From the NCBI GenBank assembly GCA_947501605.1, contig CANMWZ010000008.1:32001-96000 (forward strand): a stretch of 64,000 bases of DNA, given 5' to 3'. Position 1 is the stretch's first letter. Each line of letters begins with the position of its first letter. Of the stretch, positions 5,069 through 61,426 are shown one piece after another. Origin of the DNA: Planctomycetota bacterium (GTDB lineage Bacteria > Planctomycetota > UBA1135 > UBA2386). Under the pieces are notes generated by a model that made no database searches, had not been told where the DNA came from, and worked only from the letters and a program-made list of their open reading frames with translations. The translations under genes were made by a program, and so were the position numbers.

Positions 5069-7834
5069 TCAGCGCCGTCGCCGCTCCGCTTCCTCGAGTT
5101 CCCGCATCAGTTCGCTTAGGCCCAAGCGCTGCAGGAGCTGAGGAAGATCGCCGAGCCGGTCTTCGAGTCGTCCGAAGCCGCCACCCTCGCGCTGCGCGGC
5201 GATCAAGCTGGTCACCAGTTGCCGTGCAGTTGTCTTGGCGGCCTCCACGTCTCCGGCATCCAACTTGACGCGAACGATTCGCCGCATCGTCTGCATCTCT
5301 TCCGCCGCGAATCGCGGCTCCCTCGGCTTCCGGTCGGTACCAAGCGTGCGCTGCAACGCCAGCGCTTCTTCCAACGGTGCCAGACCAGCGCGCGGATCTC
5401 GTTGCGACTCGGCTTCGTGGACGCGACTCCCCCACAAACTGAGGGCGCGCGCGAGCAAGGCCTGAAACTCAGGATGCAGCGGTTGGTGCTCCACCAGCGT
5501 CCGCGCCTCGGACACCAATTGTTCGAGGACCGCAGGCGTCGGGCCGCCCGGACTGCGTGCCCGAGAAGGTGGCAACTGCGCCTCGCACAACTCAAATCGA
5601 TAGGCGTCGTTCTTTGGTTGCTCGGCCACGAGCTGCTTCAGGATGGCGAGCGCTTCCTGCATCGAGGCACTCAAAAGGTTGGGCTCCGCGCGCCCCGCCA
5701 TTCGCGCTTGCTCGATCAAACAGCGGGCGAGCAGAAACCGATACTCGGAGCTCTCTTGATCCTCGGCCAAGAGAGCCCGCAGGGTCAGAAGGGCCGCCTC
5801 GATGTGCCCGCGCGCCTGTTGCTGCAACTGGGCAAAGGACGGCTCGGCGAGCGGATCTCGCGGTGGAGCAAGCGAAGGCTCGGAGTCTCGGCGCCGTTCG
5901 CGAGCCGCATTGCGTCGCGCACGCGGTAATGCATCTGCGCCTCCCGCAGGACCACCGGCAAAGCCCCGCATCAGTTCACCGCGGCCTTCACGAAATCCCG
6001 GCACAGTTGCCAGCAGATAGTGCGCACGCGCGCCGAGCCAGCGCACCTTGGGCAAGGGATCGACCGCCCCCTTCTCCAGGATCTCTAGCGACTGTGAGTA
6101 GCACGAAGCCGCGACTCGGGGCTGCCCGCGACGGACTTGCACCTGCCCCAGCTCCTGCAACAGGGCTGCGAGTTCGTCCTTTTGTTCAGGGTCCCCGATC
6201 TCACGCAGCAGCGTCGCTGCTCGCTCGTAGGCCGCCACCGCCTCGTCGTGCGCGCCGAGGCGCTCCTGGATGGTGCCGACGCGGGCATAGCTGCGCGCCG
6301 TCTGATGGCGAAGAGTTGCGTTGTCGCGATTGCGCTCGGCGAACTTGTCGTAGAAGTCGAGCATGCGCTCGAGCAGCGCGAGCGCGTTGGTGTCGACCGG
6401 TGCTCGCAAGGCAGTGACGGTTGCACCATTCTCCTCCGCGTCTTCGAGGAGGGCATAGAGCGGGTCGGGGCCGACAATCGTATCGAACACGTCCTCGAAG
6501 ACCTCCAACGTGTCCTCGAGGTTGGCTCGATCGCGTTCGCTGGCTTGTAGCGCAGCTTGCTGGCTCTGGATTGCGGCGCGTTCGCTGGCGGTCCGAAGGT
6601 TCAGCGCCTCCCTTGTGGTCCAGTACGCGCTCCAGCCAACAACGGCTGCCGTGACCGTTGCGACCACGGCGATGACGCCAGCCGAGGCGAGTGCCCGATT
6701 GCGGCGGCACCAGCCGCTGAGCAATTCCAGACCCGACTGACGCCGCGCCGCGATCGGACGATCTTCGAGATACGCTCGAAGGTCGCTCCCGAACTCCGCG
6801 GCGGTCGCGTAACGCCGGGCGGGCTCGATCGCCATCGCGCGCGCCACGATGGTCTCGAGGTCATGTGGGATCGTTGGCAGCAAGCGGCGGAGTCGTTCGC
6901 AGCGACCGGCGCGGATGCGGTCGATCAATTCCGCTCGCGATTCGGCGGCAAAGGCCGGTCGCAAGGCGATCAGTTCGAACAGCGTCGCGCCGAGCGCGTA
7001 CACCTCGCTGCGCGCGTCGTAGTGCCCGGAGAACTGCTCGGGCGCCATGTACTGCAGCGTGCCGAGGACATCGCCCGTGTGCGTGAGGCCATCGTGCTGC
7101 AGGGCTTTTGCGAGGCCGAAGTCCGTCACCCAGACGTGTTCGTCGCCATCAAGCAACAAGTTCGCCGGCTTGACATCCCGGTGGAGCGTCCCTTGCTGGT
7201 GGGCGTGATGGAGCGCATCGGCGACCTCGGCGCCAAGCCGCGCGGCCAGACGACAACGATCGCGCAGCACGGTCGACGCCCCCGAAGACGGTTCCGCACG
7301 TAGCGATTTCACGACCATGTCGAGGCTGCGGCCATCGATGAACTGCATGGCGTAGAAGTGCAACCCGTCGGCCTCACCGCTGTCGAACACCGGCACGATG
7401 TGCGTGTGGTGCAACCGCGCCGCCGTCTGCGCCTCTCGACGGAAGCGCTCGAGCTGGTTGCCACTCAGTAGGCTGGCTTGCGGCAAGACCTTGAGGGCCA
7501 CGCGTCGATCGAGCGATTCCTGCACGGCCTCGAAGACGACGCCCATGCCGCCGCGCCCGACTTCGCGCACGATTCGATATTCGCCGAGTCGTTCGAGCTT
7601 CGGCAGTTGCAGGCGACGACCACCGGATACCGAGGTCTCGCGGTCGCGCTTCGCGTTCTCGAGCAGAAGCAGCGTATCCAGCAGGTCGCTCAGTTCTTGA
7701 CCATGCGCCGGATGGAGCGCTGCAAACTGTCTGGCGGAGATCGACTCGCCCTTGCGGACCCGTTGCAGGAACTCCTCAGCCAGTAGATCCAAGGGCTCCC
7801 GACTCTCGCCCTGAATTCCGTCGCGGTCGCTCAT
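5069..7834 (-). CDS. Hanks-type Ser/Thr protein kinase with a TM segment and C-terminal TPR-like repeats
   Basis: GRGGMGVV, VALK, HRDVKPAN, DFG and APE motifs intact; hydrophobic stretch ALASAGVIAVVATVTAAVVGW; helical repeat C-terminus. Confidence 0.93.
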   Translation of the reverse strand: MSDRDGIQGESREPLDLLAEEFLQRVRKGESISARQFAALHPAHGQELSDLLDTLLLLENAKRDRETSVSGGRRLQLPKLERLGEYRIVREVGRGGMGVVFEAVQESLDRRVALKVLPQASLLSGNQLERFRREAQTAARLHHTHIVPVFDSGEADGLHFYAMQFIDGRSLDMVVKSLRAEPSSGASTVLRDRCRLAARLGAEVADALHHAHQQGTLHRDVKPANLLLDGDEHVWVTDFGLAKALQHDGLTHTGDVLGTLQYMAPEQFSGHYDARSEVYALGATLFELIALRPAFAAESRAELIDRIRAGRCERLRRLLPTIPHDLETIVARAMAIEPARRYATAAEFGSDLRAYLEDRPIAARRQSGLELLSGWCRRNRALASAGVIAVVATVTAAVVGWSAYWTTREALNLRTASERAAIQSQQAALQASERDRANLEDTLEVFEDVFDTIVGPDPLYALLEDAEENGATVTALRAPVDTNALALLERMLDFYDKFAERNRDNATLRHQTARSYARVGTIQERLGAHDEAVAAYERAATLLREIGDPEQKDELAALLQELGQVQVRRGQPRVAASCYSQSLEILEKGAVDPLPKVRWLGARAHYLLATVPGFREGRGELMRGFAGGPAGGADALPRARRNAARERRRDSEPSLAPPRDPLAEPSFAQLQQQARGHIEAALLTLRALLAEDQESSEYRFLLARCLIEQARMAGRAEPNLLSASMQEALAILKQLVAEQPKNDAYRFELCEAQLPPSRARSPGGPTPAVLEQLVSEARTLVEHQPLHPEFQALLARALSLWGSRVHEAESQRDPRAGLAPLEEALALQRTLGTDRKPREPRFAAEEMQTMRRIVRVKLDAGDVEAAKTTARQLVTSLIAAQREGGGFGRLEDRLGDLPQLLQRLGLSELMRELEEAERRRR

Positions 7835-7837
7835 CGC

Positions 7838-8431
7838 CTACGGCGCCTGGAACCCGCCGAGCAGTCCCTTCAAACGGGTCAGGGCGCGGACGTAGCGATT
7901 GCTCGCGGCGTTCTCGCCGATGCCGAGCAACTCAGCGACCTCCTTGTTGGTCAGATCTTCGAAGTGGCGCAGCGTCAGTACTTCGCGATCGATCTCGTCC
8001 ATCGAGTCCAGCGCGACCGTTAGTTGCTGCTTTTGTTCGTCGCGCATCGCCGCTTGGCTCGGCGACGTCAGCGAACCCGCGATGAAGCCAGAGAGCCCGT
8101 GGCTATTGGCAAAGGCTCGTTCCTTGGCAGCGCTGCGCTTGCTGGCCCCCAGGTGGCGGCGATGCAGGTCGATCAGGGTCTGCTGCCCCACCAATCGCAG
8201 CCACAGTGGCAGTGGGTGTTGGTCGCCACGGAAGGCATAGAGCCGTTGCTGCGCCGCCAGATAGACCTCCTGCACGACGTCCTCCGGATCGATGCGACCG
8301 AACAGGCGAGGATCGAGCCGGAACTGCACCATGCGGCGCAAGCGATCGCGCTGGGCCTCGAACAGGGGAGCGAAGGCGGCATCGTCACCCGCGCGCAGTT
8401 GCTCGGTCAGTTTCGCTTCGTCGTCAGCCAT
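7838..8431 (-). CDS. ECF sigma-70 factor of the planctomycete kinase-associated type
   Basis: Start taken at MADDEAKL. Region 2 RLRRMVQFRLDPRLFGRIDPEDVVQEVY; linker TSPSQAA; region 4 DREVLTLRHFEDLTNKEVAELLGI; 3 bp upstream of the kinase. Confidence 0.9.
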   Translation of the reverse strand: MADDEAKLTEQLRAGDDAAFAPLFEAQRDRLRRMVQFRLDPRLFGRIDPEDVVQEVYLAAQQRLYAFRGDQHPLPLWLRLVGQQTLIDLHRRHLGASKRSAAKERAFANSHGLSGFIAGSLTSPSQAAMRDEQKQQLTVALDSMDEIDREVLTLRHFEDLTNKEVAELLGIGENAASNRYVRALTRLKGLLGGFQAP

Positions 8432-8523
8432 ACAGGGAGGCGGCACCATACGTGAGACGGACCAAAACGTCGCCCGGCGAGCCATCCCACTGCGCCCTTG
8501 GCCTACAAGCCAAGGTCAACCGC

Positions 8524-50917: not shown

Positions 50918-53900
50918 ATGATCCAACGCTGCACACGACGACCGGAAGAAGGGTTCACATTCATCGAACTCGCGATCGCCATGCTGGTGATGGCCATCAT
51001 CTCCACGGCCTTGGTCCACCACCTCGCGCTGCATCTGCGCAGCACGGCCACGGAACGCGATCGCACGTTCGGCATGAACAAGGCGAACGCAATCCTCAAC
51101 GAGATCCAGGGCTTTGTCGAACAGGCGCTGCCGGGCCAGGACGGCGACCTCGACTCCCTCGATGACGGCATCGTCGACAAGCCCAACTTGACGATTCTCC
51201 GTGACCCAGGCGGCAATCTGATGGCCGCGGACTCGCTGGCTTCGGACAACAACTTCGTCCGCGGCGCCTGGGAATGGACCCGTCGCATCACGGTGCGCCC
51301 CTTCCCCGGCGCCGACAACCGCAACCTCCGGTTTGCCACGGTGAGCGTCAGCAAGCGCGACCCAGGCGGCACGCTGCGCGTCGTCGCCAACCTCAGCGCC
51401 GTGGTGAACGCACCGAGCACGGCGTTCGCGACCACCCAGGTCTTCGACCTCTATCTGCTGGCGATCGAGAACATCCCGGGCTGGTGGGTCTTCATGGACT
51501 CCATCCAACCATTCGTCGAATCGACGATCACCGATCTCGAGACGCGCAATCCAGGCATGGAAGTGCGCACGCACTGGATCACCAAGTCGAGCTTTGGGCG
51601 CAACCCGGTCTACCGGCCGCACATCAACAGCACGGTCGACAGCGTCGCGGCGCACACCAACGTCTACTACTACCCCGGCCGCATGCCGACCGGCAGCGCG
51701 TCGGCCTACTACTACGTTCCAGCCAACATGCACGGCCACCTGTCGGTGGACGGGGTCGACACTCACGGCTACGACGCCGACCTGAACGAACAACCCTACG
51801 CCCTCGCGGATTACTGGAACCACGCGATGCGCTACCCCGACGAGCTTGCACTTTGGCAGGCTCGCGTAGCGGCCGTCGAAAGGCGCGAAACCGATATCGC
51901 GAACGCAATCACCGCTGGGACCACGCCGCCGGAACCCCTCGACGACATGTCCAAGGAGCCGACCTTCCGGCTGTTCCTGGAGGACCTGAACACCAACCCG
52001 TCGAAGTTCAAGAATGCACTCGTCATCAACCTGCACGGCGAGTTGCTGCCGATGCCGGCGCTGCGCAACTACTCCGACGCTGCCAAAGACCCCGTCAATC
52101 TGCCCAACGTGCGCGCGGTCACGCACCCCGAGAAGTTGCGCACCGTGCGCGTCCCCGCTGGCGTCAGCGAGGACGCCAAGTTCCGCGTCTACGCCTACAA
52201 CACCCACGAGCCCACGTTTGTCTCAGGCGGTGGCAGCCCGATTCTGTCAGCTCCGATCGCCATCGAAGTGATGGACCTAGACCTCACCGACGCCGGAGGT
52301 CCCACGCTGCTGGCAACGGTAGGCTTACAGTGTCTCGCTGGGGGTGTGGATGCCAACGTTGACGGCTCGGCCGATGCCTACACGGCGTTCGCAGACGCCA
52401 AAGTCGTCGGCACCCCGGGCCTGCTCGCCCGCGAGATGTACTACTCTGCCAGCTACGTGAACCCCGGCGTCGGCGAGCGCAAGTTCACGCGCATCCTGCT
52501 GTACAACACGCCCTGCGTTGCAACGGAAGTCAGCAACCGCGGCCTCCGCAATCAGGAACGCAGCCAGCTCTACCGCATGTCGTATGTCCCGTCGCCTTGC
52601 GAGGCGGCCCGCGACTTCTCGGTCGACCTCTTCAACAGCACTTCGGGCATCCCGAAAAACTCGGCGCGGTGGCGCTTTCAGGTGCCGGCCGTGGCCTTCA
52701 CGACCCCGTTGTTTCGCAACGCCACGACCGACCTGCCTCAGACCCTCAGCGACGATGTCGTGGTCGAGGTTCGCACGCGCTTGTGGACCGGCTCGAACCC
52801 AGCGACGTCTGGGACGATGTGGCCAAGCTCCGCCCGCAATGCGCCGGAGAACCTGTCGAAGACCTACACGTGGTGGGCCGACAGCAACAACGACGTGCCG
52901 ATCACCGAGCGAGCACAGTTCCAAGGCGACCCACGCCACAGCCCCTATCGAGATCTGCTGCGCGACCACCAGACCGGGGACCCCGGCTTCCCGACGACGT
53001 CGTACCGGCCGACCATGCCGGATGGCTACAACTGGTACTTCGACAACCTGAATCGAAGCGGCGAAGTCGCGACTACGGATGCCCCGGGACTGAGCACCAC
53101 CCGACTGGCGGATCGTTGGCGCGGCCGCGTGAACTTTGATGCGCCTCGCCTGTTCGAACTGCTGCGCAAGGGCTTGGTCACCAGCGACTGCGTCTACACC
53201 ACGCTGACCGGGTGGTCCTACTACTACCTCGGCATCGGCAACGACATTGGCTACGACTCGGCAAACGGATACCCGAACTCGATCCCAGTCAACCTGACGC
53301 CCCACGGCGGCACCGGCAGCGGCTTCCACAACAACATCACCAGCTCGCGCACCTACGTGCGAGCGGCTGGGGCGGCAACGGACTACTGGTGGAGCATGCC
53401 GTGGCTCGGCGAGCTCTGCCCCGACTCCGCCTACGCATCCCAGTGGGCCGCTACCGATGCGGACGGAAACCTGGCCGGAAATCTAGTGGCAGGTACCGCC
53501 GCGGGTCGCTTCTACCAGCAAGCGATCAACACCGTGCACACCGGCAGCACGCGCCAGGGCTGGGGCATCGAGATGCTCTCGGCGCACCAAAACACGAACC
53601 AAGAAGGCTGCACGTCCTTCTTCAACATCGGCACAGCAGCGAGCACCTTCCACCACCAATCCGGAACGGCGAACGGGACGCTGACCACGATCGGTTCGGA
53701 ACTGGCCGAGAACTACAACTTCCGGATGCCCTCGACGGCACCGATCAGTCGCCCCTTCGGTGTCGCGACCAACGGCACCGGCACGACTGGAAGCGAGTGG
53801 ACCCTGTCGCCCTACAGCACCGAGCGCTTCACCGGCTCGCTCTATCGCACCTACTTCACCCACCCAGCCGGCCAGACTGGATCGGGCTTGGTCAAGGTCG

Positions 53901-54469
53901 TGAACCCAGGTGGCACTGACGCGGCCTACGTGGTGGTGAACGGCTTCGACAACACGGTTGAGTCCGGCTCCACCTTCATCGCCAAGTTCGCCGTGCTCTC
54001 GCTCGTGCACTCGTTCTTCGAGGCCGGCAGCACCACCAACACCCTCCGCATCAAGCAGCCACCCCGGGTCGAGATCCTGTCGCCTACGGACATCAGCGAG
54101 CTCGTCGATCCGACCGATGTAGAAGTCGTCCTGCGCGCGAACTGGACGCGCTGGGACTCCGTGACCTACACGGAGACCGGCACCTACGCCGAGGACGAGA
54201 CGGAACTGCAGTACGTGCTGATGTACTCGACCGACCGGGGCGCCTCATGGCGCTACGTGCAAGACAACAGCGCGGCCGCCGCCGGCGTCCGACCGACCGC
54301 CCCGACGTATCTGGTCGATGACCTCGGCACCGGCGATGAGGTCTACACCTGGGACCTGCCGAGCCTCGACTTCCCGCAGGGCAGCTACTTCCTGCGCGTC
54401 GAGTGTTACCGAAGGGACGCCTCGCTGCACTACAGCTACCACCAGACCAAGCTGTTCGTGCAGCGCTGA
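50918..54469 (+). CDS. Giant prepilin-type N-terminal cleavage/methylation protein (1183 aa)
   Basis: Class III signal EEG|FTFIELAIAMLVMAIIS; PilV/GspI-like region (WTRRITV...ATVSVS); ~1000-aa Thr/Gly/Tyr/Asn-rich extension. Confidence 0.85.
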   Translation: MIQRCTRRPEEGFTFIELAIAMLVMAIISTALVHHLALHLRSTATERDRTFGMNKANAILNEIQGFVEQALPGQDGDLDSLDDGIVDKPNLTILRDPGGNLMAADSLASDNNFVRGAWEWTRRITVRPFPGADNRNLRFATVSVSKRDPGGTLRVVANLSAVVNAPSTAFATTQVFDLYLLAIENIPGWWVFMDSIQPFVESTITDLETRNPGMEVRTHWITKSSFGRNPVYRPHINSTVDSVAAHTNVYYYPGRMPTGSASAYYYVPANMHGHLSVDGVDTHGYDADLNEQPYALADYWNHAMRYPDELALWQARVAAVERRETDIANAITAGTTPPEPLDDMSKEPTFRLFLEDLNTNPSKFKNALVINLHGELLPMPALRNYSDAAKDPVNLPNVRAVTHPEKLRTVRVPAGVSEDAKFRVYAYNTHEPTFVSGGGSPILSAPIAIEVMDLDLTDAGGPTLLATVGLQCLAGGVDANVDGSADAYTAFADAKVVGTPGLLAREMYYSASYVNPGVGERKFTRILLYNTPCVATEVSNRGLRNQERSQLYRMSYVPSPCEAARDFSVDLFNSTSGIPKNSARWRFQVPAVAFTTPLFRNATTDLPQTLSDDVVVEVRTRLWTGSNPATSGTMWPSSARNAPENLSKTYTWWADSNNDVPITERAQFQGDPRHSPYRDLLRDHQTGDPGFPTTSYRPTMPDGYNWYFDNLNRSGEVATTDAPGLSTTRLADRWRGRVNFDAPRLFELLRKGLVTSDCVYTTLTGWSYYYLGIGNDIGYDSANGYPNSIPVNLTPHGGTGSGFHNNITSSRTYVRAAGAATDYWWSMPWLGELCPDSAYASQWAATDADGNLAGNLVAGTAAGRFYQQAINTVHTGSTRQGWGIEMLSAHQNTNQEGCTSFFNIGTAASTFHHQSGTANGTLTTIGSELAENYNFRMPSTAPISRPFGVATNGTGTTGSEWTLSPYSTERFTGSLYRTYFTHPAGQTGSGLVKVVNPGGTDAAYVVVNGFDNTVESGSTFIAKFAVLSLVHSFFEAGSTTNTLRIKQPPRVEILSPTDISELVDPTDVEVVLRANWTRWDSVTYTETGTYAEDETELQYVLMYSTDRGASWRYVQDNSAAAAGVRPTAPTYLVDDLGTGDEVYTWDLPSLDFPQGSYFLRVECYRRDASLHYSYHQTKLFVQR

Positions 54470-55623: not shown

Positions 55624-55651
55624 CCGCCCGTAGGGCACACCGTGCCTCAGT

Positions 55652-55730
55652 GTTCGGGGATGGGGCGTTCGGGGATTGGGAGTTCGGGGCCGGCATTCGG
55701 GCTCGCAGCGATTGGGCTCGCGGCGATCGG
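55652..55730. repeat. G-rich 15-bp-period tandem repeats (GTTCGGGG... x3; GGGCTCGCRGCGAT x2)
   Basis: GTTCGGGG at 55652, 55667 and 55682; GGGCTCGC at 55699 and 55714; located at the convergent dcd/kinase junction. Confidence 0.8.
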
Positions 55731-55772
55731 CCGCCCCGTTGCGTCGAGCCTCCTGATGACTCGCCGGCGGCC

Positions 55773-57431
55773 TCAACGAAACAAGGACTCGACGTCGACT
55801 GGGCCGATCGACTCACCACCACGGGCCCCGGTCCCCAACTCCTCGGCCAGCGCCACCATCTCACGGAGCGCGAGACCGCGTTCCCGTTCGCGAGCCAAGG
55901 TGTGCGCTGCGGCGCAGACGATCTCGTAGTCGCGGACTTCGTTGAGGTGGATCGCTCGAGCGATCAGCGCACCACCATCGGGATCGATCAACCTCGGTGC
56001 AAAGTCGAGCCGGTGGAGGCCACTCGCCAGATCGTGAACCATCGCGGCTGTTCGGCCTCCCACCTGGGTGCGCCTGGGCTCAACCTGCAACTCGCCGTCG
56101 GTGCCGGTGCGGCGCTCCCATACCATCACGCCGGCGTGCCCGTCGATCTCCACGACGCAGGCGGCAGCACCAAGACGGGCGACGAGATTGGCGGTGGAAG
56201 GCCGCAGCCACCAACTCGACAGTGCGACGACGTACAGCGCTGCAATCAAAGATGCAGCGATGCGATGCCGGCGCACGACGTGGCGTCCGGTCCGCATGGC
56301 GCGGCCAATCGAACCGAGTCGGCTCGCATACGGCAACTGCCCGTCAAGCCAGCGTTCAAGGTCGTCGCGCATGGCAACTGCGCTCGGGTAGCGGCGGGCA
56401 GGATCACGCTCCATGGCTCGAAGGCAGATGTCTTCGAGTTCGCGCGGAATCTGTCGGCGAACATCGCGCGGCTTGCGGAACGTCCCCTCGGCGACGGATT
56501 GCAGCAGCTTGGTTCGCCCATCGTCGGCGAACGCGCGCTGCAGCGTCAGCAGTTCGTAGAGCAGAAGCCCGGCCTGGTAGAGATCCGTCAGCTCGTCCTT
56601 CCCAGTCTTGCCGCGGTAGATCTGTTCGGGCGCGAGATAGGCCACGGTACCGAACAGACGGCCGGTGACGTCGCCTTCGCTGTGGCCGATCCCGGCTAGA
56701 CCGAAGTCGACCAACACCGGGCGCCCGCCGCGCCGCATCAAGACGTTGCCGGGCTTCAAATCGCGGTGCACGACCCGATCCGGCTGATGCGCGTGCGCGG
56801 CGGCCAGCGCCAAGGCCACATCGGCGACCCACAGTGCCACGGTTCGAAACCATTCGCCGTCCAGTCTCGACGACTCCGCGGCCCTCGCCGGCTCGATTAC
56901 GCGTTCGACGCATTCGCGGGTCGGCGGATAGACGCCAGCCGCGACCAACGTGCGCAGCACGTGATCCAGAGATCGACCCTCGACCAGCTCCATTGCCAGG
57001 AAGTGAGCCTCCTCATGCTTGCCCGAATCGAGCAAGCGCACGATGCCGTCGTGATGGAGCCCTGCCAGAGCACGCTGCTCTCGTTGCAGGTCGCGCAAAA
57101 TTGCGCTGTCCTCGCGCAGCGAGTGGAACAGCTTCAGGGCCACGTCCCGACCGATCTTCTCGTCCCGCGCGCGCCAGACTTTGCCGTAACCGCCGCTACC
57201 GATCAGCTCGAGCAGTCGGTAGCGACCAGCAATCAGCGCCTGCGGTTTGTGAAGCTCGGGGAACACAGCCATCGCCGCATTCGCTGCCAGGCAGATCGAC
57301 CGCAGTTCGCGCCGCTGCTCCTCGGTCGGCAACCGCTGCACCAGCGCATCCAGGTCCGGCACGTCCCCGACCTCCTGTGCCGCCAGGTACTCCATCACCA
57401 ACAAGTCCACTGGGTCGTCTTCGTGATTCAT
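55773..57431 (-). CDS. Hanks-type Ser/Thr protein kinase with TM and a short extracytoplasmic domain
   Basis: Start MNHEDD; GSGGYGKV, VALK, HRDLKPGN, DFG, APE; TM IAASLIAALYVVALSSWWL. Confidence 0.92.
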   Translation of the reverse strand: MNHEDDPVDLLVMEYLAAQEVGDVPDLDALVQRLPTEEQRRELRSICLAANAAMAVFPELHKPQALIAGRYRLLELIGSGGYGKVWRARDEKIGRDVALKLFHSLREDSAILRDLQREQRALAGLHHDGIVRLLDSGKHEEAHFLAMELVEGRSLDHVLRTLVAAGVYPPTRECVERVIEPARAAESSRLDGEWFRTVALWVADVALALAAAHAHQPDRVVHRDLKPGNVLMRRGGRPVLVDFGLAGIGHSEGDVTGRLFGTVAYLAPEQIYRGKTGKDELTDLYQAGLLLYELLTLQRAFADDGRTKLLQSVAEGTFRKPRDVRRQIPRELEDICLRAMERDPARRYPSAVAMRDDLERWLDGQLPYASRLGSIGRAMRTGRHVVRRHRIAASLIAALYVVALSSWWLRPSTANLVARLGAAACVVEIDGHAGVMVWERRTGTDGELQVEPRRTQVGGRTAAMVHDLASGLHRLDFAPRLIDPDGGALIARAIHLNEVRDYEIVCAAAHTLARERERGLALREMVALAEELGTGARGGESIGPVDVESLFR

Positions 57432-57482
57432 GCCGTCACCTGGGGAACGAGGGGAAGCTGGTGGCAACCCGCAGGCATTCGT

Positions 57483-58121
57483 TCAGAGGGCTGCAATCGC
57501 GCCGTCACGGCCATGCTGCTTCATGCAGCGCGCGAGCAGCACCAGGGCGCGCCGATGCAGTTCGCGCGCCGCAGAATCCGTGTTCTTGCCGAGCTTCTGC
57601 GCCACCTCGAGCCACTCGAGGCCGTCATAGTCGCGCAGGACGATGCAGTTCCGGTGCTCCTCGGGCAAGCACTCGAGGCAGTCCTCGACAGCGGCCTCCT
57701 GCTCGCGCTGGATCGACTGACCTTGCGGCCCAGTGACAGCCCCCGGAACCAACTGTGCCAAGTTGCCGCTCGCTTCGCCGAACTGCGCGTCGAGCGATTG
57801 CAGACCGCCCGGTGCCGTACGCTTCTTGGAGCCAACGCGATCGGCCTCGTCGCGGATCTGGCCGGCGGCGATTTCCGCGAGCCAGTGAATCAGGCTGCCC
57901 TCATGGCGCATCTCGAAGCGATCGAAGATCTGGAACGCCTTGAAGAAGGTCTGCTGCAAGACATCCCCCGAATCGAGCGAGGCTCGAAGCTTCTGCCCCA
58001 GGCGAGCCCGAACCGAGCGCCTTGCCCGTTCGTAGTAGCGTTCGAACAACCGTGACAGCGCGTCGCGGTCGCCGCCTTGTGCTTGCTTGACAAGTTCGAG
58101 GGTCTGTGTGAGTGGGTTCAT
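57483..58121 (-). CDS. ECF sigma-70 factor, kinase-associated
   Basis: LVKQAQGGDRDALSRLFERY, RARLGQKLRASLDSGDVLQQTF, WLAEIA, region 4 LPEEHRNCIVLRDYDGLEWLEVAQKLG. Confidence 0.9.
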   Translation of the reverse strand: MNPLTQTLELVKQAQGGDRDALSRLFERYYERARRSVRARLGQKLRASLDSGDVLQQTFFKAFQIFDRFEMRHEGSLIHWLAEIAAGQIRDEADRVGSKKRTAPGGLQSLDAQFGEASGNLAQLVPGAVTGPQGQSIQREQEAAVEDCLECLPEEHRNCIVLRDYDGLEWLEVAQKLGKNTDSAARELHRRALVLLARCMKQHGRDGAIAAL

Positions 58122-58212
58122 CCCGCAGCGTATGTTACCGGCGAAACGGAGATCGTCGAGCCAAGGGACTGCCGCTCCGACCTGAAATCCCACCCAACGC
58201 CACAAACAGCCC

Positions 58213-60273
58213 ATGCTCCCATCCCACCTAGCAGCAGTCCGGCTCCGGTTCTGGTTCGTTGCCCTGATCATGCTGGCCGCCCACGCGGTCGCTCAGAGCC
58301 CGGCGCAGGAGTCGCCCAAGACTCTGGCGCTGCTCGTCGGCGTCGATCGCTACGCCCAGCCGACCGAAGGCGAGTGGAAAACCCTGCGCGGCTGTGAAAA
58401 CGACATCCAGCTGGTCGCCGAGGTGCTCGTCGAACGCTTCGGGTTTCGCCCCGAAGACATCGTCACACTCAAGTCCGAACAGGCCACGCACGAGGCGATC
58501 GTGCGCGCCTTCTACACACACCTCATCGAAAGGGCCGGCAAGGACACCAAGGTCGTCTTCTGGTTCAGCGGTCATGGTTCCCAAGTTCCCGACCCGTCGC
58601 AGAAGGACCGCGCTGCAGCCGGTGACTACGAGCCGAACAAGGACCAGACCATGCTGGCCCATGACAGTCGCAAGGGCGCCTGGAACGGCAGCTACGACCT
58701 CGCCGACGACGAACTTCATTCGCTGCTTGCAGCATTGAAGTCTCGCGACGTCGTGCTCGTAACCGACTGCTGCCACTCCGGTGGACTGTCGCGTGGCGGC
58801 GAGCAGCTCGGAGTTCGCGGCGAAGCCGATGGCGACCAGCCGCACGATCTCTTGGCTCGCAAACAGTTCTGGCCGGAGACCGTCGCGCTCCTCGAGGATG
58901 ATGACCTGGGGTCGGAGCTTCTCCACGTGGTCCAGATCGCCGCCTGCGCGGCGCATGAAGAAGCCGGCGAAATCGAAGCCGGGGGTCGAGTGCACGGGAC
59001 CCTCACTTGGTTCCTGTGCCAAGCCATGCGAGAACTGCCAGCAACCGCATCGTGGCGCGAGGTCGTCGAGACGGTCCGCGCGCGGATCGCCGGTCGCATG
59101 GGCTCGCGGCCAGCACAATACGTGGACGCCATCGGCAAGGTCTCGCGAGCGATGTTGAGTGGCACGGCGAGGCCGGTACCGCTGGGTTACGTCGTCGAGT
59201 TCTCACCTGCCGGTGACTTGCAGATCGGCGCCGGTCGCATCCACGGCATCGGCAAGGAGACGACCTTTGACCTCCGCGACATCGACGGCAAGCGCGTAGC
59301 CGGCGCATCCGTGATCGACGTCCGAGGAGCAACTACGACCGTTAAGCTGAACGGTCCAGCGAAGTACGGGAAGGCACTTTGGGCGGTCCCGACCGGCAAG
59401 CTCGATGGTCGGTCCCCACTGTCCGTTTGCTTACCCGACGACAAGGCTCAGGAGCTCATCGCGCAGTGCGCCTACGGCATCGCCACTGACGCGGACCACG
59501 CTGACTACCAACTTGCGCGCGTCGCTGACGAAGTGGAGCTTCGCAAGCGAAACGGAGAGACGATTGCGCGAGCCAAGGACGAACCGACCGCCGTCCAGGC
59601 ACTGTTGTTCCGCGAGACCAATTTCCGCTTCCTCTGGGACGCTGTCGCCGCTCGCGGAGTTCACCCAATCGAAGTCTGCGTCAGACCCGCATTACCGGAG
59701 CAGTGCGAGGTCACGGAGGACGGCCGGACACTGCGTGTGGCCGCCGCCACGATCGATGCCAGGGCGAAGGGATCGCACATCCGCGTCACTGCCCCTCTGC
59801 TCGACGACCGCAGAGACAGCGGGGCGATAGTCGTCCTCGAGATCGCCAACCGGAGCGACGAGGACCTGTTCGTCGCCGTGCTCTCGGTGCAAGAAGATCG
59901 TGCGATCACACTGGTGTTGGGAAACGACCGCAACAGCAACCTGATCCACGCAGGGGAGGTGTTCCCAGTGCGGGTGCAGGTCGGACCGTCTGCGGCTTGG
60001 CTTCGCAACCGACCGATGGTCGATCGCTACCTGGTGTTCGCAACGCCCCGCTTTGCGGACTTCCGACCGTTCGCGCAAGCAGCGCCGACGACAGTGCGTG
60101 GCGGCGGCGAGGAGGAAGGGCTCTCCCTGCTGCAGACTCTGCAGTTCGGTGAAGTCACGCGCGGCAGTGACGCCCCCATGCCATGGGGCATCGCCTATGT
60201 CGATCTTGAGCTGCACGCACCGACGGCGAACAGCTCGTCACAGCCGACGAAGCCCGACAAAGCCCTGAAGTAA
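58213..60273 (+). CDS. Exported caspase-family (peptidase C14) protease with a C-terminal DUF4384-like domain
   Basis: Signal peptide ...LIMLAAHAVA-Q; ALLVGVDRY, LRGCEND, catalytic FSGHG and DCCHSG, HGTLTWFL; C-terminal IANRSDEDLFVAVL...DRYLVFAT...W domain. Confidence 0.9.
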   Translation: MLPSHLAAVRLRFWFVALIMLAAHAVAQSPAQESPKTLALLVGVDRYAQPTEGEWKTLRGCENDIQLVAEVLVERFGFRPEDIVTLKSEQATHEAIVRAFYTHLIERAGKDTKVVFWFSGHGSQVPDPSQKDRAAAGDYEPNKDQTMLAHDSRKGAWNGSYDLADDELHSLLAALKSRDVVLVTDCCHSGGLSRGGEQLGVRGEADGDQPHDLLARKQFWPETVALLEDDDLGSELLHVVQIAACAAHEEAGEIEAGGRVHGTLTWFLCQAMRELPATASWREVVETVRARIAGRMGSRPAQYVDAIGKVSRAMLSGTARPVPLGYVVEFSPAGDLQIGAGRIHGIGKETTFDLRDIDGKRVAGASVIDVRGATTTVKLNGPAKYGKALWAVPTGKLDGRSPLSVCLPDDKAQELIAQCAYGIATDADHADYQLARVADEVELRKRNGETIARAKDEPTAVQALLFRETNFRFLWDAVAARGVHPIEVCVRPALPEQCEVTEDGRTLRVAAATIDARAKGSHIRVTAPLLDDRRDSGAIVVLEIANRSDEDLFVAVLSVQEDRAITLVLGNDRNSNLIHAGEVFPVRVQVGPSAAWLRNRPMVDRYLVFATPRFADFRPFAQAAPTTVRGGGEEEGLSLLQTLQFGEVTRGSDAPMPWGIAYVDLELHAPTANSSSQPTKPDKALK

Positions 60274-60280
60274 CCGCGCG

Positions 60281-61426
60281 CTACAGATTGCCTAGCCGGA
60301 TCGCGCCGGTTGGGCAGTTGCGTTCGCAGGCACCATCGCGAGTACACTCGTAGTTGTGCAACTTGCGCACGACGTCTCCGATCGGAACGGCGGCAAAGCC
60401 GCTGGTCACGCACGTGGCAGCACAGATCCCGCAGTGGATGCAGGCGTTCATGTCGACGTGAAGACGCACATGATCGCGCGGTGACGAAGCGATGCGATCC
60501 TCTTCGGCCACGACCACCGGATCACAGTGGTAGCGAGTCAAGGGGTGCGTGGTCAGCACCTCGAGGGCCTCGCGTTCGCCGAGACGCACGATCTCGGTCA
60601 CATCCGGCATGTCCAACAGACCTATGTGCGAGACCTTGGGCTTGATCAGGACAGTGCGATCGTCGACGTAGCGATGCAGGTTCTGCTCGTTGAGAGCCAT
60701 GCCCATGATCTCGTACGTCTGCGAGAGGATGTGTGGCAGGCTCGCGCGGTAGTCGGTCTCCGCGTGCAGGTCACGATGCGACAGATCCACTGCGATCACC
60801 AGATCCGGCTTGCGCGCCTTCGCCAGCCTCAAGCCGAGTGTCTCGGTCATGCCACCGTCGATGTAATGATCGCCCAGCAGTTCCATCGGTTCGAACACCG
60901 CCGGCAAGCAGGCGCTGGCATAGACCGCATCGCCGACCGGGACCTCGTCGGCGCCCGGTAGCCCGAAGAACTGGGAACGTCCGGTCTTCAAGGACAAGGC
61001 GTTGCAGAAGAACGGTCGCGGCAGCTCGGCAAAGTGCTGCTGCGGCAGCCATCGCCGCAGGAATTGGAGGAAGGTCTTGCCCTTGTAAACCGAAGCGTGG
61101 CGGTAGCCCTTCACCAGGAACTTCAACAAGTTCAGCTTGAAGTAGTCCTTGAACGTGATCTGTGACGCAACTTCCTCGATGCGACGACTATCCATTCCAG
61201 TCGCGTACAACCCGCCCATCACCGCACCCATGCTCGTGCCGACGACTTCGTCGATGCGGATACCCAACCGTTCGATGGCACGGATGACACCGATATGGCA
61301 GTAGCCGCGCATGCCGCCGCCGCCGAGGACCAGTACGGTGCGGCGCGACGGCTCCGCCCGCTGTACGGAGAGGCCCGATTCTCGGCTCGAGCGAACCCGG
61401 TCGTTGCTGTCGTTGGGGTGGGACAC
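60281..61426 (-). CDS. Patatin-like phospholipase fused to a C-terminal 2x[4Fe-4S] ferredoxin domain
   Basis: GGGGMRG, GTSMG, ASACLP, DGG; C-terminal CIHCGICAATC and CTRDGACERNCP. Confidence 0.88.
   Translation of the reverse strand: MSHPNDSNDRVRSSRESGLSVQRAEPSRRTVLVLGGGGMRGYCHIGVIRAIERLGIRIDEVVGTSMGAVMGGLYATGMDSRRIEEVASQITFKDYFKLNLLKFLVKGYRHASVYKGKTFLQFLRRWLPQQHFAELPRPFFCNALSLKTGRSQFFGLPGADEVPVGDAVYASACLPAVFEPMELLGDHYIDGGMTETLGLRLAKARKPDLVIAVDLSHRDLHAETDYRASLPHILSQTYEIMGMALNEQNLHRYVDDRTVLIKPKVSHIGLLDMPDVTEIVRLGEREALEVLTTHPLTRYHCDPVVVAEEDRIASSPRDHVRLHVDMNACIHCGICAATCVTSGFAAVPIGDVVRKLHNYECTRDGACERNCPTGAIRLGNL

What the first reader, a model, noticed from the sequence alone, without database searches (positions are those of the whole stretch)
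55773..60273. Candidate proteolysis-triggered signalling module: exported caspase-like protease + membrane Ser/Thr kinase + ECF sigma factor
Seen: an ECF gene followed by a TM kinase gene, divergent across only ~90 bp from a caspase-family gene. The protease has an intact His-Cys dyad (FSGHG, DCCHSG), a signal peptide and a DUF4384-like C-terminus. Protease and kinase C-terminus should therefore lie on the same (outer) side of the membrane. The three genes sit between unrelated metabolic genes (dcd, patatin). Known: some ECFs are activated by Hanks-kinase phosphorylation (EcfP/PknT in Vibrio, EcfK/PknS in Xanthomonas), and bacterial caspase homologues act in conflict and cell-death systems. 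Inference: an extracytoplasmic protease-to-kinase-to-sigma cascade, possibly with feedback on the divergent protease promoter. I know of no characterised system with this combination.
Basis: partly seen in the sequence, partly recalled or inferred. Interest (0 to 1): 0.78.

Follow-up and report, generated by a model that had tools for sequence, protein, structure and literature searches.

The report
Exported metacaspase, bait-loop kinase, sigma factor
A three-gene unit that recurs across uncultured planctomycete bacteria pairs a protease predicted to be exported and to cut after arginine with a membrane kinase whose outer domain carries a near-invariant Arg-Gly loop that varies in step with a loop on the protease, so the protease likely cuts that loop to control the kinase and its sigma factor, a route across the membrane that remains untested.

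Summary
The three genes are real, intact and placed as described. The trio recurs: 19 of 33 non-redundant loci of this caspase family carry kinase and ECF within 4 kb (0 of 60 for distant caspases), in several gene orders. Four kinase-caspase fusion proteins put the protease on the kinase's outer side. The protease is a true metacaspase with a conserved acidic S1 pocket, so it likely cuts after Arg. The kinase's DUF4384-like outer domain has an Arg-Gly loop in 137 of 145 relatives, and its flanks match one of the protease's own three Arg-Gly loops (R650), not the other two. Against a fixed trio: 9 of 16 loci of this kinase clade have no neighbouring protease, and 3 have a secreted CHAT protease instead. 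Best reading (0.55): the exported protease cuts the loop and so controls a kinase that phosphorylates the ECF (candidate Ser51). Cleavage, trigger, sign and regulon are untested; promoter feedback has no support. The gene combination is already known (Haliangium PCaspase/PCk/PCc-sigma); the exported bait-loop wiring was not found in eight literature searches. This scan noted similar modules, mostly with CHAT proteases, on other DNA.

The parts
55773..57431 (-). Single-pass Hanks-type Ser/Thr kinase, 552 aa (about 65-aa N-terminal extension, kinase domain 71-350, TM 391-409, outer domain 410-552)
   Evidence: the only one of 26 kinase ORFs of this genome inside a 42-member clade with SH-aLRT 100
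56205..56261 (-). Predicted transmembrane helix of the kinase (residues 391-409), preceded by a basic patch
   Evidence: hydropathy; hydrophobic segment at the same place in the aligned kinases
55776..56204 (-). DUF4384-like outer domain: beta-sandwich, two helices, exposed loop, short terminal helix
   Evidence: model pLDDT 90; profile match to DUF4384 proteins P 96%, E 2e-9
55818..55823 (-). Arg537-Gly538, candidate cut site or bait loop, 15 residues from the C-terminus
   Evidence: RG in 24 of 26 linked kinases and 137 of 145 untruncated relatives; the two most conserved columns
57483..58121 (-). ECF sigma factor, 212 aa, planctomycete kinase-associated type
57963..57974 (-). Sigma region 2.2 motif D50-S51-G52-D53; Ser51 is the candidate phospho-acceptor
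   Evidence: Ser or Thr at this position in 23 of 23 linked ECFs
58122..58212 (.). 91-bp divergent intergenic region; no promoter motif identified
58213..60273 (+). Predicted exported metacaspase, 686 aa: signal peptide, p20+p10 core (34-318), middle domains, DUF4384-like C-terminal domain
58213..58293 (+). Predicted Sec signal peptide (residues 1-27)
   Evidence: hydropathy only
58573..58773 (+). Catalytic His121 to Cys187, with S1-pocket Ser119 and Asp185 (Glu253 lies further on)
   Evidence: invariant or nearly so; aligned to AtMC4 Ser84, Asp137, Asp352
58792..58797 (+). Arg194-Gly195, first RG loop (after the catalytic Cys), candidate self-processing site
   Evidence: invariant in 38 of 38; low-confidence loop in the model
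60097..60102 (+). Arg629-Gly630, second RG loop
   Evidence: Arg invariant; low-confidence loop
60160..60165 (+). Arg650-Gly651, third RG loop; its flanks co-vary with the kinase loop across loci

Best explanation
This is a conserved three-gene unit in which a metacaspase predicted to be exported and Arg-specific likely cuts the kinase's outer Arg-Gly loop (R537|G538), which would switch the kinase and, through likely phosphorylation of sigma Ser51, the ECF regulon. Steps: (1) Export by a signal peptide puts protease and kinase tail on the same side (predicted; backed by fusions). (2) The protease is likely a zymogen that processes or restrains itself at its own three RG loops, as plant AtMC4 does at Lys225 (inferred). 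(3) An unknown cue, possibly envelope damage or Ca2+, releases it (inferred; no evidence for the cue). (4) It recognises the kinase loop with the same site that reads its own R650 loop (co-variation shown; recognition inferred). (6) The kinase phosphorylates the ECF (inferred from EcfP/PknT and EcfK/PknS). In some lineages a secreted CHAT protease fills the protease slot (shown as gene context).
For: Linkage: kinase and ECF within 4 kb in 19 of 33 non-redundant family loci, kinase in 23 of 33 (one of them unrelated), against 0 and 1 of 60 for distant caspases; at least three gene orders. Fusions with the caspase after the kinase's outer domain: L034, L038, L041 and P0061; three lack a signal peptide at the junction. 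Arg specificity: best folds AtMC9 Z 27.1 and AtMC4 Z 25.9; S1 residues conserved. RG loop: 137 of 145, background 8.6%, in a coil of the model. Co-variation with R650 flanks: mean -1.67 against -6.44 +/- 1.07 shuffled, p 1e-4, 21 pairs; holds with one locus per clade (9 clades) and within clades, p 0.004; none for R194 or R629. Swap: secreted CHAT proteins beside the same kinase clade in L216, L221, L225; in L221 the CHAT has a C-terminal motif matching the kinase loop. In two genomes with an unlinked caspase the clade kinase, with ECF and RG, lies elsewhere. ECF Ser/Thr in 23 of 23.
Against: Nine of 16 assessable clade loci found from the kinase side have no caspase-type protease nearby; two of these lie near contig ends. 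In six genomes (84-91% complete) with the RG kinase, no caspase of this family was found. Two genomes have the caspase but no full-length clade kinase was found. The RG loop is general in DUF4384-type domains (RG or RS in 9 of 9 inspected), so part of its conservation may be structural. The match of loop flanks in the window's own pair is modest (score 2) and negative in one whole subclade. The ECF keeps two acidic residues of the DAED motif, and its Ser sits one position before the EcfP Thr. No experiment exists for any step.
Confidence: 0.55

Rival explanations
1. Docking or inhibition without productive cutting: the kinase loop binds the protease active site like a canonical inhibitor loop, tethers the protease at the membrane, and signals by binding or release.
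For: Same conservation and co-variation data; PCi both inhibits PCaspase and is cut by it in Haliangium; fusions fit a stable tether.
Against: The protease keeps an intact dyad in 38 of 38; the loop's flanks are variable and Gly-rich rather than a rigid inhibitor loop.
Confidence: 0.15
2. Sentinel: the loop is a general bait for Arg-specific proteases from predators, competitors or lysed neighbours; the cell's own caspase is an output or amplifier, not the first trigger.
For: RG is kept in kinases with no neighbouring protease and in genomes where this caspase family was not found; EcfK/PknS responds to amoebae.
Against: Flank co-variation with the cognate protease and fusions point to a dedicated partner; all five caspase-lacking genomes tested have CHAT genes.
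Confidence: 0.15
3. Constitutive maturation: the protease trims RG loops in DUF4384-type domains as a processing step; the kinase then senses some other ligand.
For: RG loops occur in the protease itself and in standalone DUF4384 lipoproteins next to caspases.
Against: It does not explain why only one of three protease loops tracks the kinase loop.
Confidence: 0.1
4. Regulon only: the caspase is simply a target gene of the ECF and never touches the kinase.
For: Divergent layout here; metacaspase and sigma-70 operons are common.
Against: Fusions, loop co-variation and the CHAT swap; no shared promoter motif seen.
Confidence: 0.05

Closest known systems
[quoted passage not shown]
   Same: Peptidase C14 caspase, Ser/Thr kinase and sigma factor encoded together; the authors hypothesise that PCaspase proteolytically activates PCk.
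   Different: It is triggered by cA3 through SAVED-CHAT and PCaspase cuts the sigma factor itself; PCk could not be cloned. Here no SAVED-CHAT or PCi gene lies between the dcd and patatin flanks, the protease is predicted to be exported, and a membrane would separate it from the sigma. Sequences were not compared directly.
ECF43 sigma / Hanks kinase pairs EcfP-PknT and EcfK-PknS (PMC8999054, passages and section 3.4; PMC13147305, passages)
   Same: ECF next to a single-pass kinase, no anti-sigma, conserved Ser/Thr in region 2.2.
   Different: Motif here is D-S-x-D, not STTA; the outer domain is DUF4384-like, not TPR; no protease partner appeared in the passages read.
Planctomycete kinase-associated ECF groups ECF59/61/62/217 (PMC7826278; passages and supplement passages; supplement cut when stored)
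   Same: Planctomycete ECF with a membrane kinase at +1; best NCBIfam hit TIGR02984.
   Different: No caspase mentioned in the held text (0 hits); group membership not testable; regulation predicted only.
DdvA-DdvS of Myxococcus xanthus (PMC11506125; passages)
   Same: Periplasmic caspase-like domain proposed to start transmembrane signalling to an ECF.
   Different: DdvA is an anti-sigma with a fused TPR-CHAT and uses RseP; no kinase.
Type III-E Csx29 / Csx30 / RpoE (bioRxiv 10.1101/2022.08.17.504292; passages)
   Same: Caspase-like protease cuts a sigma-binding protein; some Csx30 C-terminal domains are DUF4384.
   Different: RNA-guided and CRISPR-linked; CHAT protease; no kinase.
Plant metacaspase AtMC4, Propep1, receptor PEPR1 (bioRxiv 10.1101/2020.03.09.983940; passages)
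   Same: Closest solved fold and S1 pocket; self-inhibited, Arg/Lys-cutting protease upstream of a surface receptor.
   Different: AtMC4 is activated by intracellular Ca2+ and releases a peptide ligand; here the receptor itself carries the candidate site.
Metacaspase / sigma-70 operons of Myxococcus, Haliangium and others (PMC3501461; passages)
   Same: Caspase-sigma linkage and probable signal peptides on many bacterial metacaspases were noted in 2012.
   Different: No kinase, cut site or mechanism in the passages read.

Membership tests
Metacaspase (Peptidase C14, p20+p10) | His-Cys dyad in a caspase fold | tested here: met
Metacaspase (Peptidase C14, p20+p10) | p10 region as well as p20 | tested here: met
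   second stretch aligns to AtMC4 338-401; structural match spans 34-318
Metacaspase (Peptidase C14, p20+p10) | Acidic S1 pocket for Arg/Lys | tested here: met
   S119, D185, E253 align to AtMC4 S84, D137, D352
Metacaspase (Peptidase C14, p20+p10) | Proteolysis after Arg/Lys, Ca2+ dependence | not testable with these tools
   needs biochemistry
Hanks-type receptor kinase | Catalytic Lys, Glu, HRD, DFG; one TM helix after the kinase domain | tested here: met
DUF4384 (PF14326) | Pfam score over the cut-off in the window proteins | tested here: not met
   no hit for either window protein
DUF4384 (PF14326) | Profile-level homology of both domains to DUF4384 proteins | tested here: met
   hhalign P 96% (kinase outer domain) and 95% (caspase C-terminal domain); hence 'DUF4384-like'
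ECF43 (EcfP/EcfK) | DAED replaced by an STTA-type motif lacking acidic residues | tested here: not met
   D-S-G-D here
ECF43 (EcfP/EcfK) | Neighbouring Hanks kinase, no anti-sigma | tested here: met
ECF43 (EcfP/EcfK) | Direct phosphorylation activates the sigma | not testable with these tools
   needs experiment
TIGR02984 / ECF59-like planctomycete ECFs | Score over the family cut-off | tested here: not met
   116 bits against 183.75; ECF group HMMs not available
PCaspase module (Haliangium) | Caspase, kinase and sigma in one cluster | tested here: met
PCaspase module (Haliangium) | Upstream SAVED-CHAT with CRISPR or CBASS cyclase | tested here: not met
   no CHAT match in this 91%-complete genome; flanks are dcd and patatin
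PCaspase module (Haliangium) | Orthology of the proteins to PCaspase and PCk | not tested
   sequences not fetched
DdvA-DdvS | Zinc anti-sigma fused to periplasmic TPR-CHAT | tested here: not met

The most novel reading that the evidence does not exclude
A bacterial protease-activated receptor kinase: DUF4384-type domains are bait modules whose Arg-Gly loop is cut by a cognate exported caspase-clan protease (C14 metacaspase or CHAT, interchangeably). The cut switches a membrane kinase, which phosphorylates an ECF sigma. A protease secreted by one cell could then signal to neighbours, giving a self-propagating extracellular alarm comparable in logic to plant metacaspase-to-receptor wound signalling.
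Probability: 0.4. Interest if true: 0.88.

Novelty: new variant of a known kind. Interest (0 to 1): 0.7.

Why it matters
If true it supplies three missing things at once: an input for the planctomycete kinase-coupled ECF sigma factors, whose regulation is only predicted in the ECF classification; a signalling role for exported bacterial metacaspases; and a function for DUF4384, which appeared in only 7 papers of the library. The claim is directly testable with two soluble domains and single-residue mutants (R537A, C187A, S51A). The organisms are uncultured, so tests need heterologous expression.

Tried and rejected
Complex prediction of caspase 30-675 with the kinase outer domain: no answer, score 0.00, controls not run; not used either way. 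First profile comparison of the kinase outer domain with the caspase C-terminal domain was not significant, nor was the direct comparison with larger alignments (P 2.5%); each matches DUF4384 proteins separately. Fold search of the outer domain gave only generic sandwich matches, best Z 4.8. Word-index search with the outer domain found only the window protein. Atlas search of the outer domain gave nothing at 0.9 or above; the search for the caspase C-terminal domain did not complete. Promoter feedback: no sigma-70 site and no shared motif by eye in 17 intergenic regions; no motif-finding program was run. Expression: four RNA runs, contigs only, covered the whole 15 kb about evenly, so DNA carry-over cannot be excluded. 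PADLOC hits are generic kinase, caspase and phospholipase domain matches, not evidence of a defence system. The outer-domain profile missed true clade kinases in two genomes (against 66, 84), so its misses are not absences. Patatin and dcd were rejected as parts: patatin was seen beside the trio only in L032. The ORF caller's longer starts (57467 for the kinase, 58271 for the ECF) were rejected on homologue alignments.
Full report
Observation. The three reading frames are present and intact. The ECF (57483-58121, minus, 212 aa) matches sigma-70 ECF models, best the planctomycete family TIGR02984 but below its cut-off. The kinase (55773-57431, minus, 552 aa) has all catalytic motifs and one hydrophobic segment at 391-409. 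The caspase (58213-60273, plus, 686 aa) has His121 and Cys187 invariant in 38 of 38 aligned sequences. The divergent gap is 91 bp. Named relatives are Planctomycetota MAGs; the genome is 4.65 Mb and 91% complete.

The protease. The model (pLDDT 84) matches plant metacaspases AtMC9 (Z 27.1, rmsd 2.9, 245 aligned) and AtMC4 (Z 25.9) over residues 34-318, so both p20 and p10 are present. AtMC4's S1 pocket is Ser84, Asp137, Ser350 and Asp352 (bioRxiv 10.1101/2020.03.09.983940, passages). These align to Ser119, Asp185, Ala251 and Glu253 here, with Asp185 and Glu253 invariant, so cutting after Arg or Lys is likely. The family keeps three Arg-Gly motifs, at R194, R629 and R650, all in low-confidence loops of the model. 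Export rests on hydropathy: 32 of 35 homologues scored have an N-terminal hydrophobic stretch (two partial sequences left out). The public gene call starts at Met20 and drops it, but the closest homologues carry it.

Recurrence from the caspase side. Of 52 loci of this family, 47 remained after merging at 90% identity and 33 had at least 3.5 kb upstream; 14 were dropped for short flanks. Kinase and ECF both lie within 4 kb in 19 of 33, a kinase in 23 of 33 (one, L048, is an unrelated kinase). For distant caspases, mostly actinobacterial, the counts are 0 and 1 of 60; these hosts have a different base rate. Gene order varies: ECF-kinase divergent from the caspase (as here), kinase-ECF divergent, and ECF-kinase-caspase in one direction. 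Four proteins fuse kinase, TM helix, outer domain and caspase: L034, L038, L041 and P0061. L038 and L041 are close relatives, and L038's caspase is split in its second half. Three fusions have no signal peptide at the junction and L034 keeps a remnant. This is the best evidence that protease and kinase tail share a compartment.

The kinase outer domain. The linked kinases form one clade (42 rows, SH-aLRT 100, quick tree) that holds only this one of the genome's 26 kinase ORFs; L052 falls outside it. Their outer domains share about 20% identity, yet 24 of 26 carry Arg-Gly at one aligned place, the others Arg-Ser and Lys-Gly. A profile search of 1.84 billion representatives gave 173 hits. Of the best 150, 115 have a kinase domain, 5 were scored as truncated, and 137 of the other 145 have RG at that site against a background of 8.6%; R and G are the two most conserved columns. 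The profile contained the motif, so marginal hits are biased, but the proportion is similar among the strongest hits. In the model (pLDDT 90) the motif lies in a coil between two helices after a beta-sandwich, 15 residues from the C-terminus. This domain and the caspase C-terminal domain each match DUF4384 proteins by profile (P 96% and 95%), though not each other, and 9 of 9 DUF4384 proteins inspected have RG or RS in the same region.

Co-variation. Across 21 linked pairs, the eight residues flanking the kinase RG resemble those flanking the cognate R650 (mean BLOSUM sum -1.67 against -6.44 +/- 1.07 shuffled, p 1e-4) but not R194 (p 0.58) or R629 (p 0.51, 20 pairs). With one locus drawn per kinase clade (9 clades) the mean was 1.61 against -5.15 +/- 1.98, and within-clade shuffles gave p 0.004; the two control sites again showed nothing clear. 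The samples are small, the window's own pair scores only 2, and one subclade scores negative.

Recurrence from the kinase side, which limits the claim. In 401 genomes of the phylum the outer-domain profile hit 20. Of 16 assessable clade loci outside this genome, 4 have the C14 caspase adjacent, 3 have a secreted CHAT or TPR-CHAT protein adjacent or two genes away (L216, L221, L225), and 9 have neither; two further loci were on contigs too short to judge. Four of the nine are in genomes with a full-length family caspase elsewhere. In six genomes of one family, 84-91% complete, the caspase family was not found; all five tested have 2 to 10 CHAT matches. Their kinases keep RG. Conversely, two genomes with an unlinked caspase have the clade kinase with ECF and RG elsewhere, and in two (G292, G301) no full-length clade kinase was found. 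The kinase-ECF pair is therefore the core and the protease slot is filled by either of two caspase-clan families, or in trans.

The sigma factor. Region 2.2 reads D-S-x-D, with Ser or Thr at the second position in 23 of 23 linked ECFs (two are near-identical, and two unlinked ECFs have it too). EcfP has STTA with the second Thr phosphorylated, and the review notes that other kinase-linked groups keep acidic residues with a Ser or Thr nearby (PMC8999054, section 3.4). Ser51 is thus a candidate, one position off the EcfP site. [quoted passage not shown]

Mechanism. Most likely (0.55) the exported metacaspase, once released from self-restraint at its own RG loops, cuts the kinase at R537, changes its activity, and so sets ECF phosphorylation. 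Shown: genes, motifs, linkage, fusions, co-variation, protease swap. Predicted: export, folds, Arg specificity. Inferred: cleavage, phosphorylation, order of events. Unknown: trigger, sign, regulon. Rivals are docking without cutting (0.15), a sentinel for foreign proteases (0.15), constitutive maturation (0.10) and mere co-regulation (0.05). Feedback on the divergent promoter has no support.

What is known. The Haliangium type III-B locus encodes PCaspase, kinase PCk and PCc-sigma, and its authors propose that PCaspase activates PCk, which they could not clone. The terms 'transmembrane' and 'signal peptide' do not occur in that main text (supplements closed). DdvA places a caspase-like domain in the periplasm upstream of an ECF, some Csx30 proteins end in DUF4384, ECF25 anti-sigma factors can carry DUF4384, one kinase family is listed with DUF4384, and metacaspase-sigma operons were noted in 2012. 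Passages of PMC11032199 and PMC8195603 added nothing on this module. Eight searches showed no paper on an exported caspase acting on a kinase's outer loop; the library lacks most subscription journals, bioRxiv supplements were closed and the ECF supplement was cut. This scan has unverified notes on similar modules in other genomes, mostly with TPR-CHAT proteases and none by sequence for this caspase.

Verdict. Real, conserved and testable; a new variant of caspase-sigma signalling, with a specific candidate cut site. Interest 0.70.

Noticed in passing
G000:C5:95214-97025 (L241); similar in L031:6236-7993, L272:3068-5911, L277:3904-5859: A second caspase type is fused directly after a kinase and TM helix with no DUF4384-like domain.
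   Followed up: partly
window about 5072-8515 (G000:C8:37072-40515): Another ECF and kinase pair in this window; its kinase has a long helical outer region and lies outside the RG clade. The genome has 26 kinase ORFs, many beside ECFs.
   Followed up: partly
L046:1961-2938, L048:698-1549, L054:4134-5021, L276:6919-7746: Standalone lipoprotein-like DUF4384 proteins with the RG loop, in three cases beside a second exported caspase that has one C-terminal RG loop.
   Followed up: partly
window 60281-61426 (-): Patatin phospholipase fused to a 4Fe-4S dicluster domain; the same gene follows the caspase in L032.
   Followed up: no
window about 55650-55740: Short imperfect repeats between dcd and the kinase; one RNA-run contig lacks 15 bases at 55667.
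   Followed up: no
window 50918-54469 (+): 1183-aa protein with a prepilin-type N-methylation motif and no other Pfam domain.
   Followed up: no
L031:8118-8423, L058:10036-10449, L114:1577-1879: A conserved unannotated protein of 100-140 aa sits next to family caspases in three loci.
   Followed up: no
P0062: The kinase-type outer domain with its RG loop fused to a sialic-acid acetylesterase domain; the record may be partial or chimeric.
   Followed up: no
window 55773-60273: Near-identical DNA occurs in freshwater sediment and lake metatranscriptome runs of three studies; this shows habitat, not expression.
   Followed up: partly
L049:10227-12281: A gingipain-family (C25) protease directly follows the caspase in one trio locus.
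   Followed up: no
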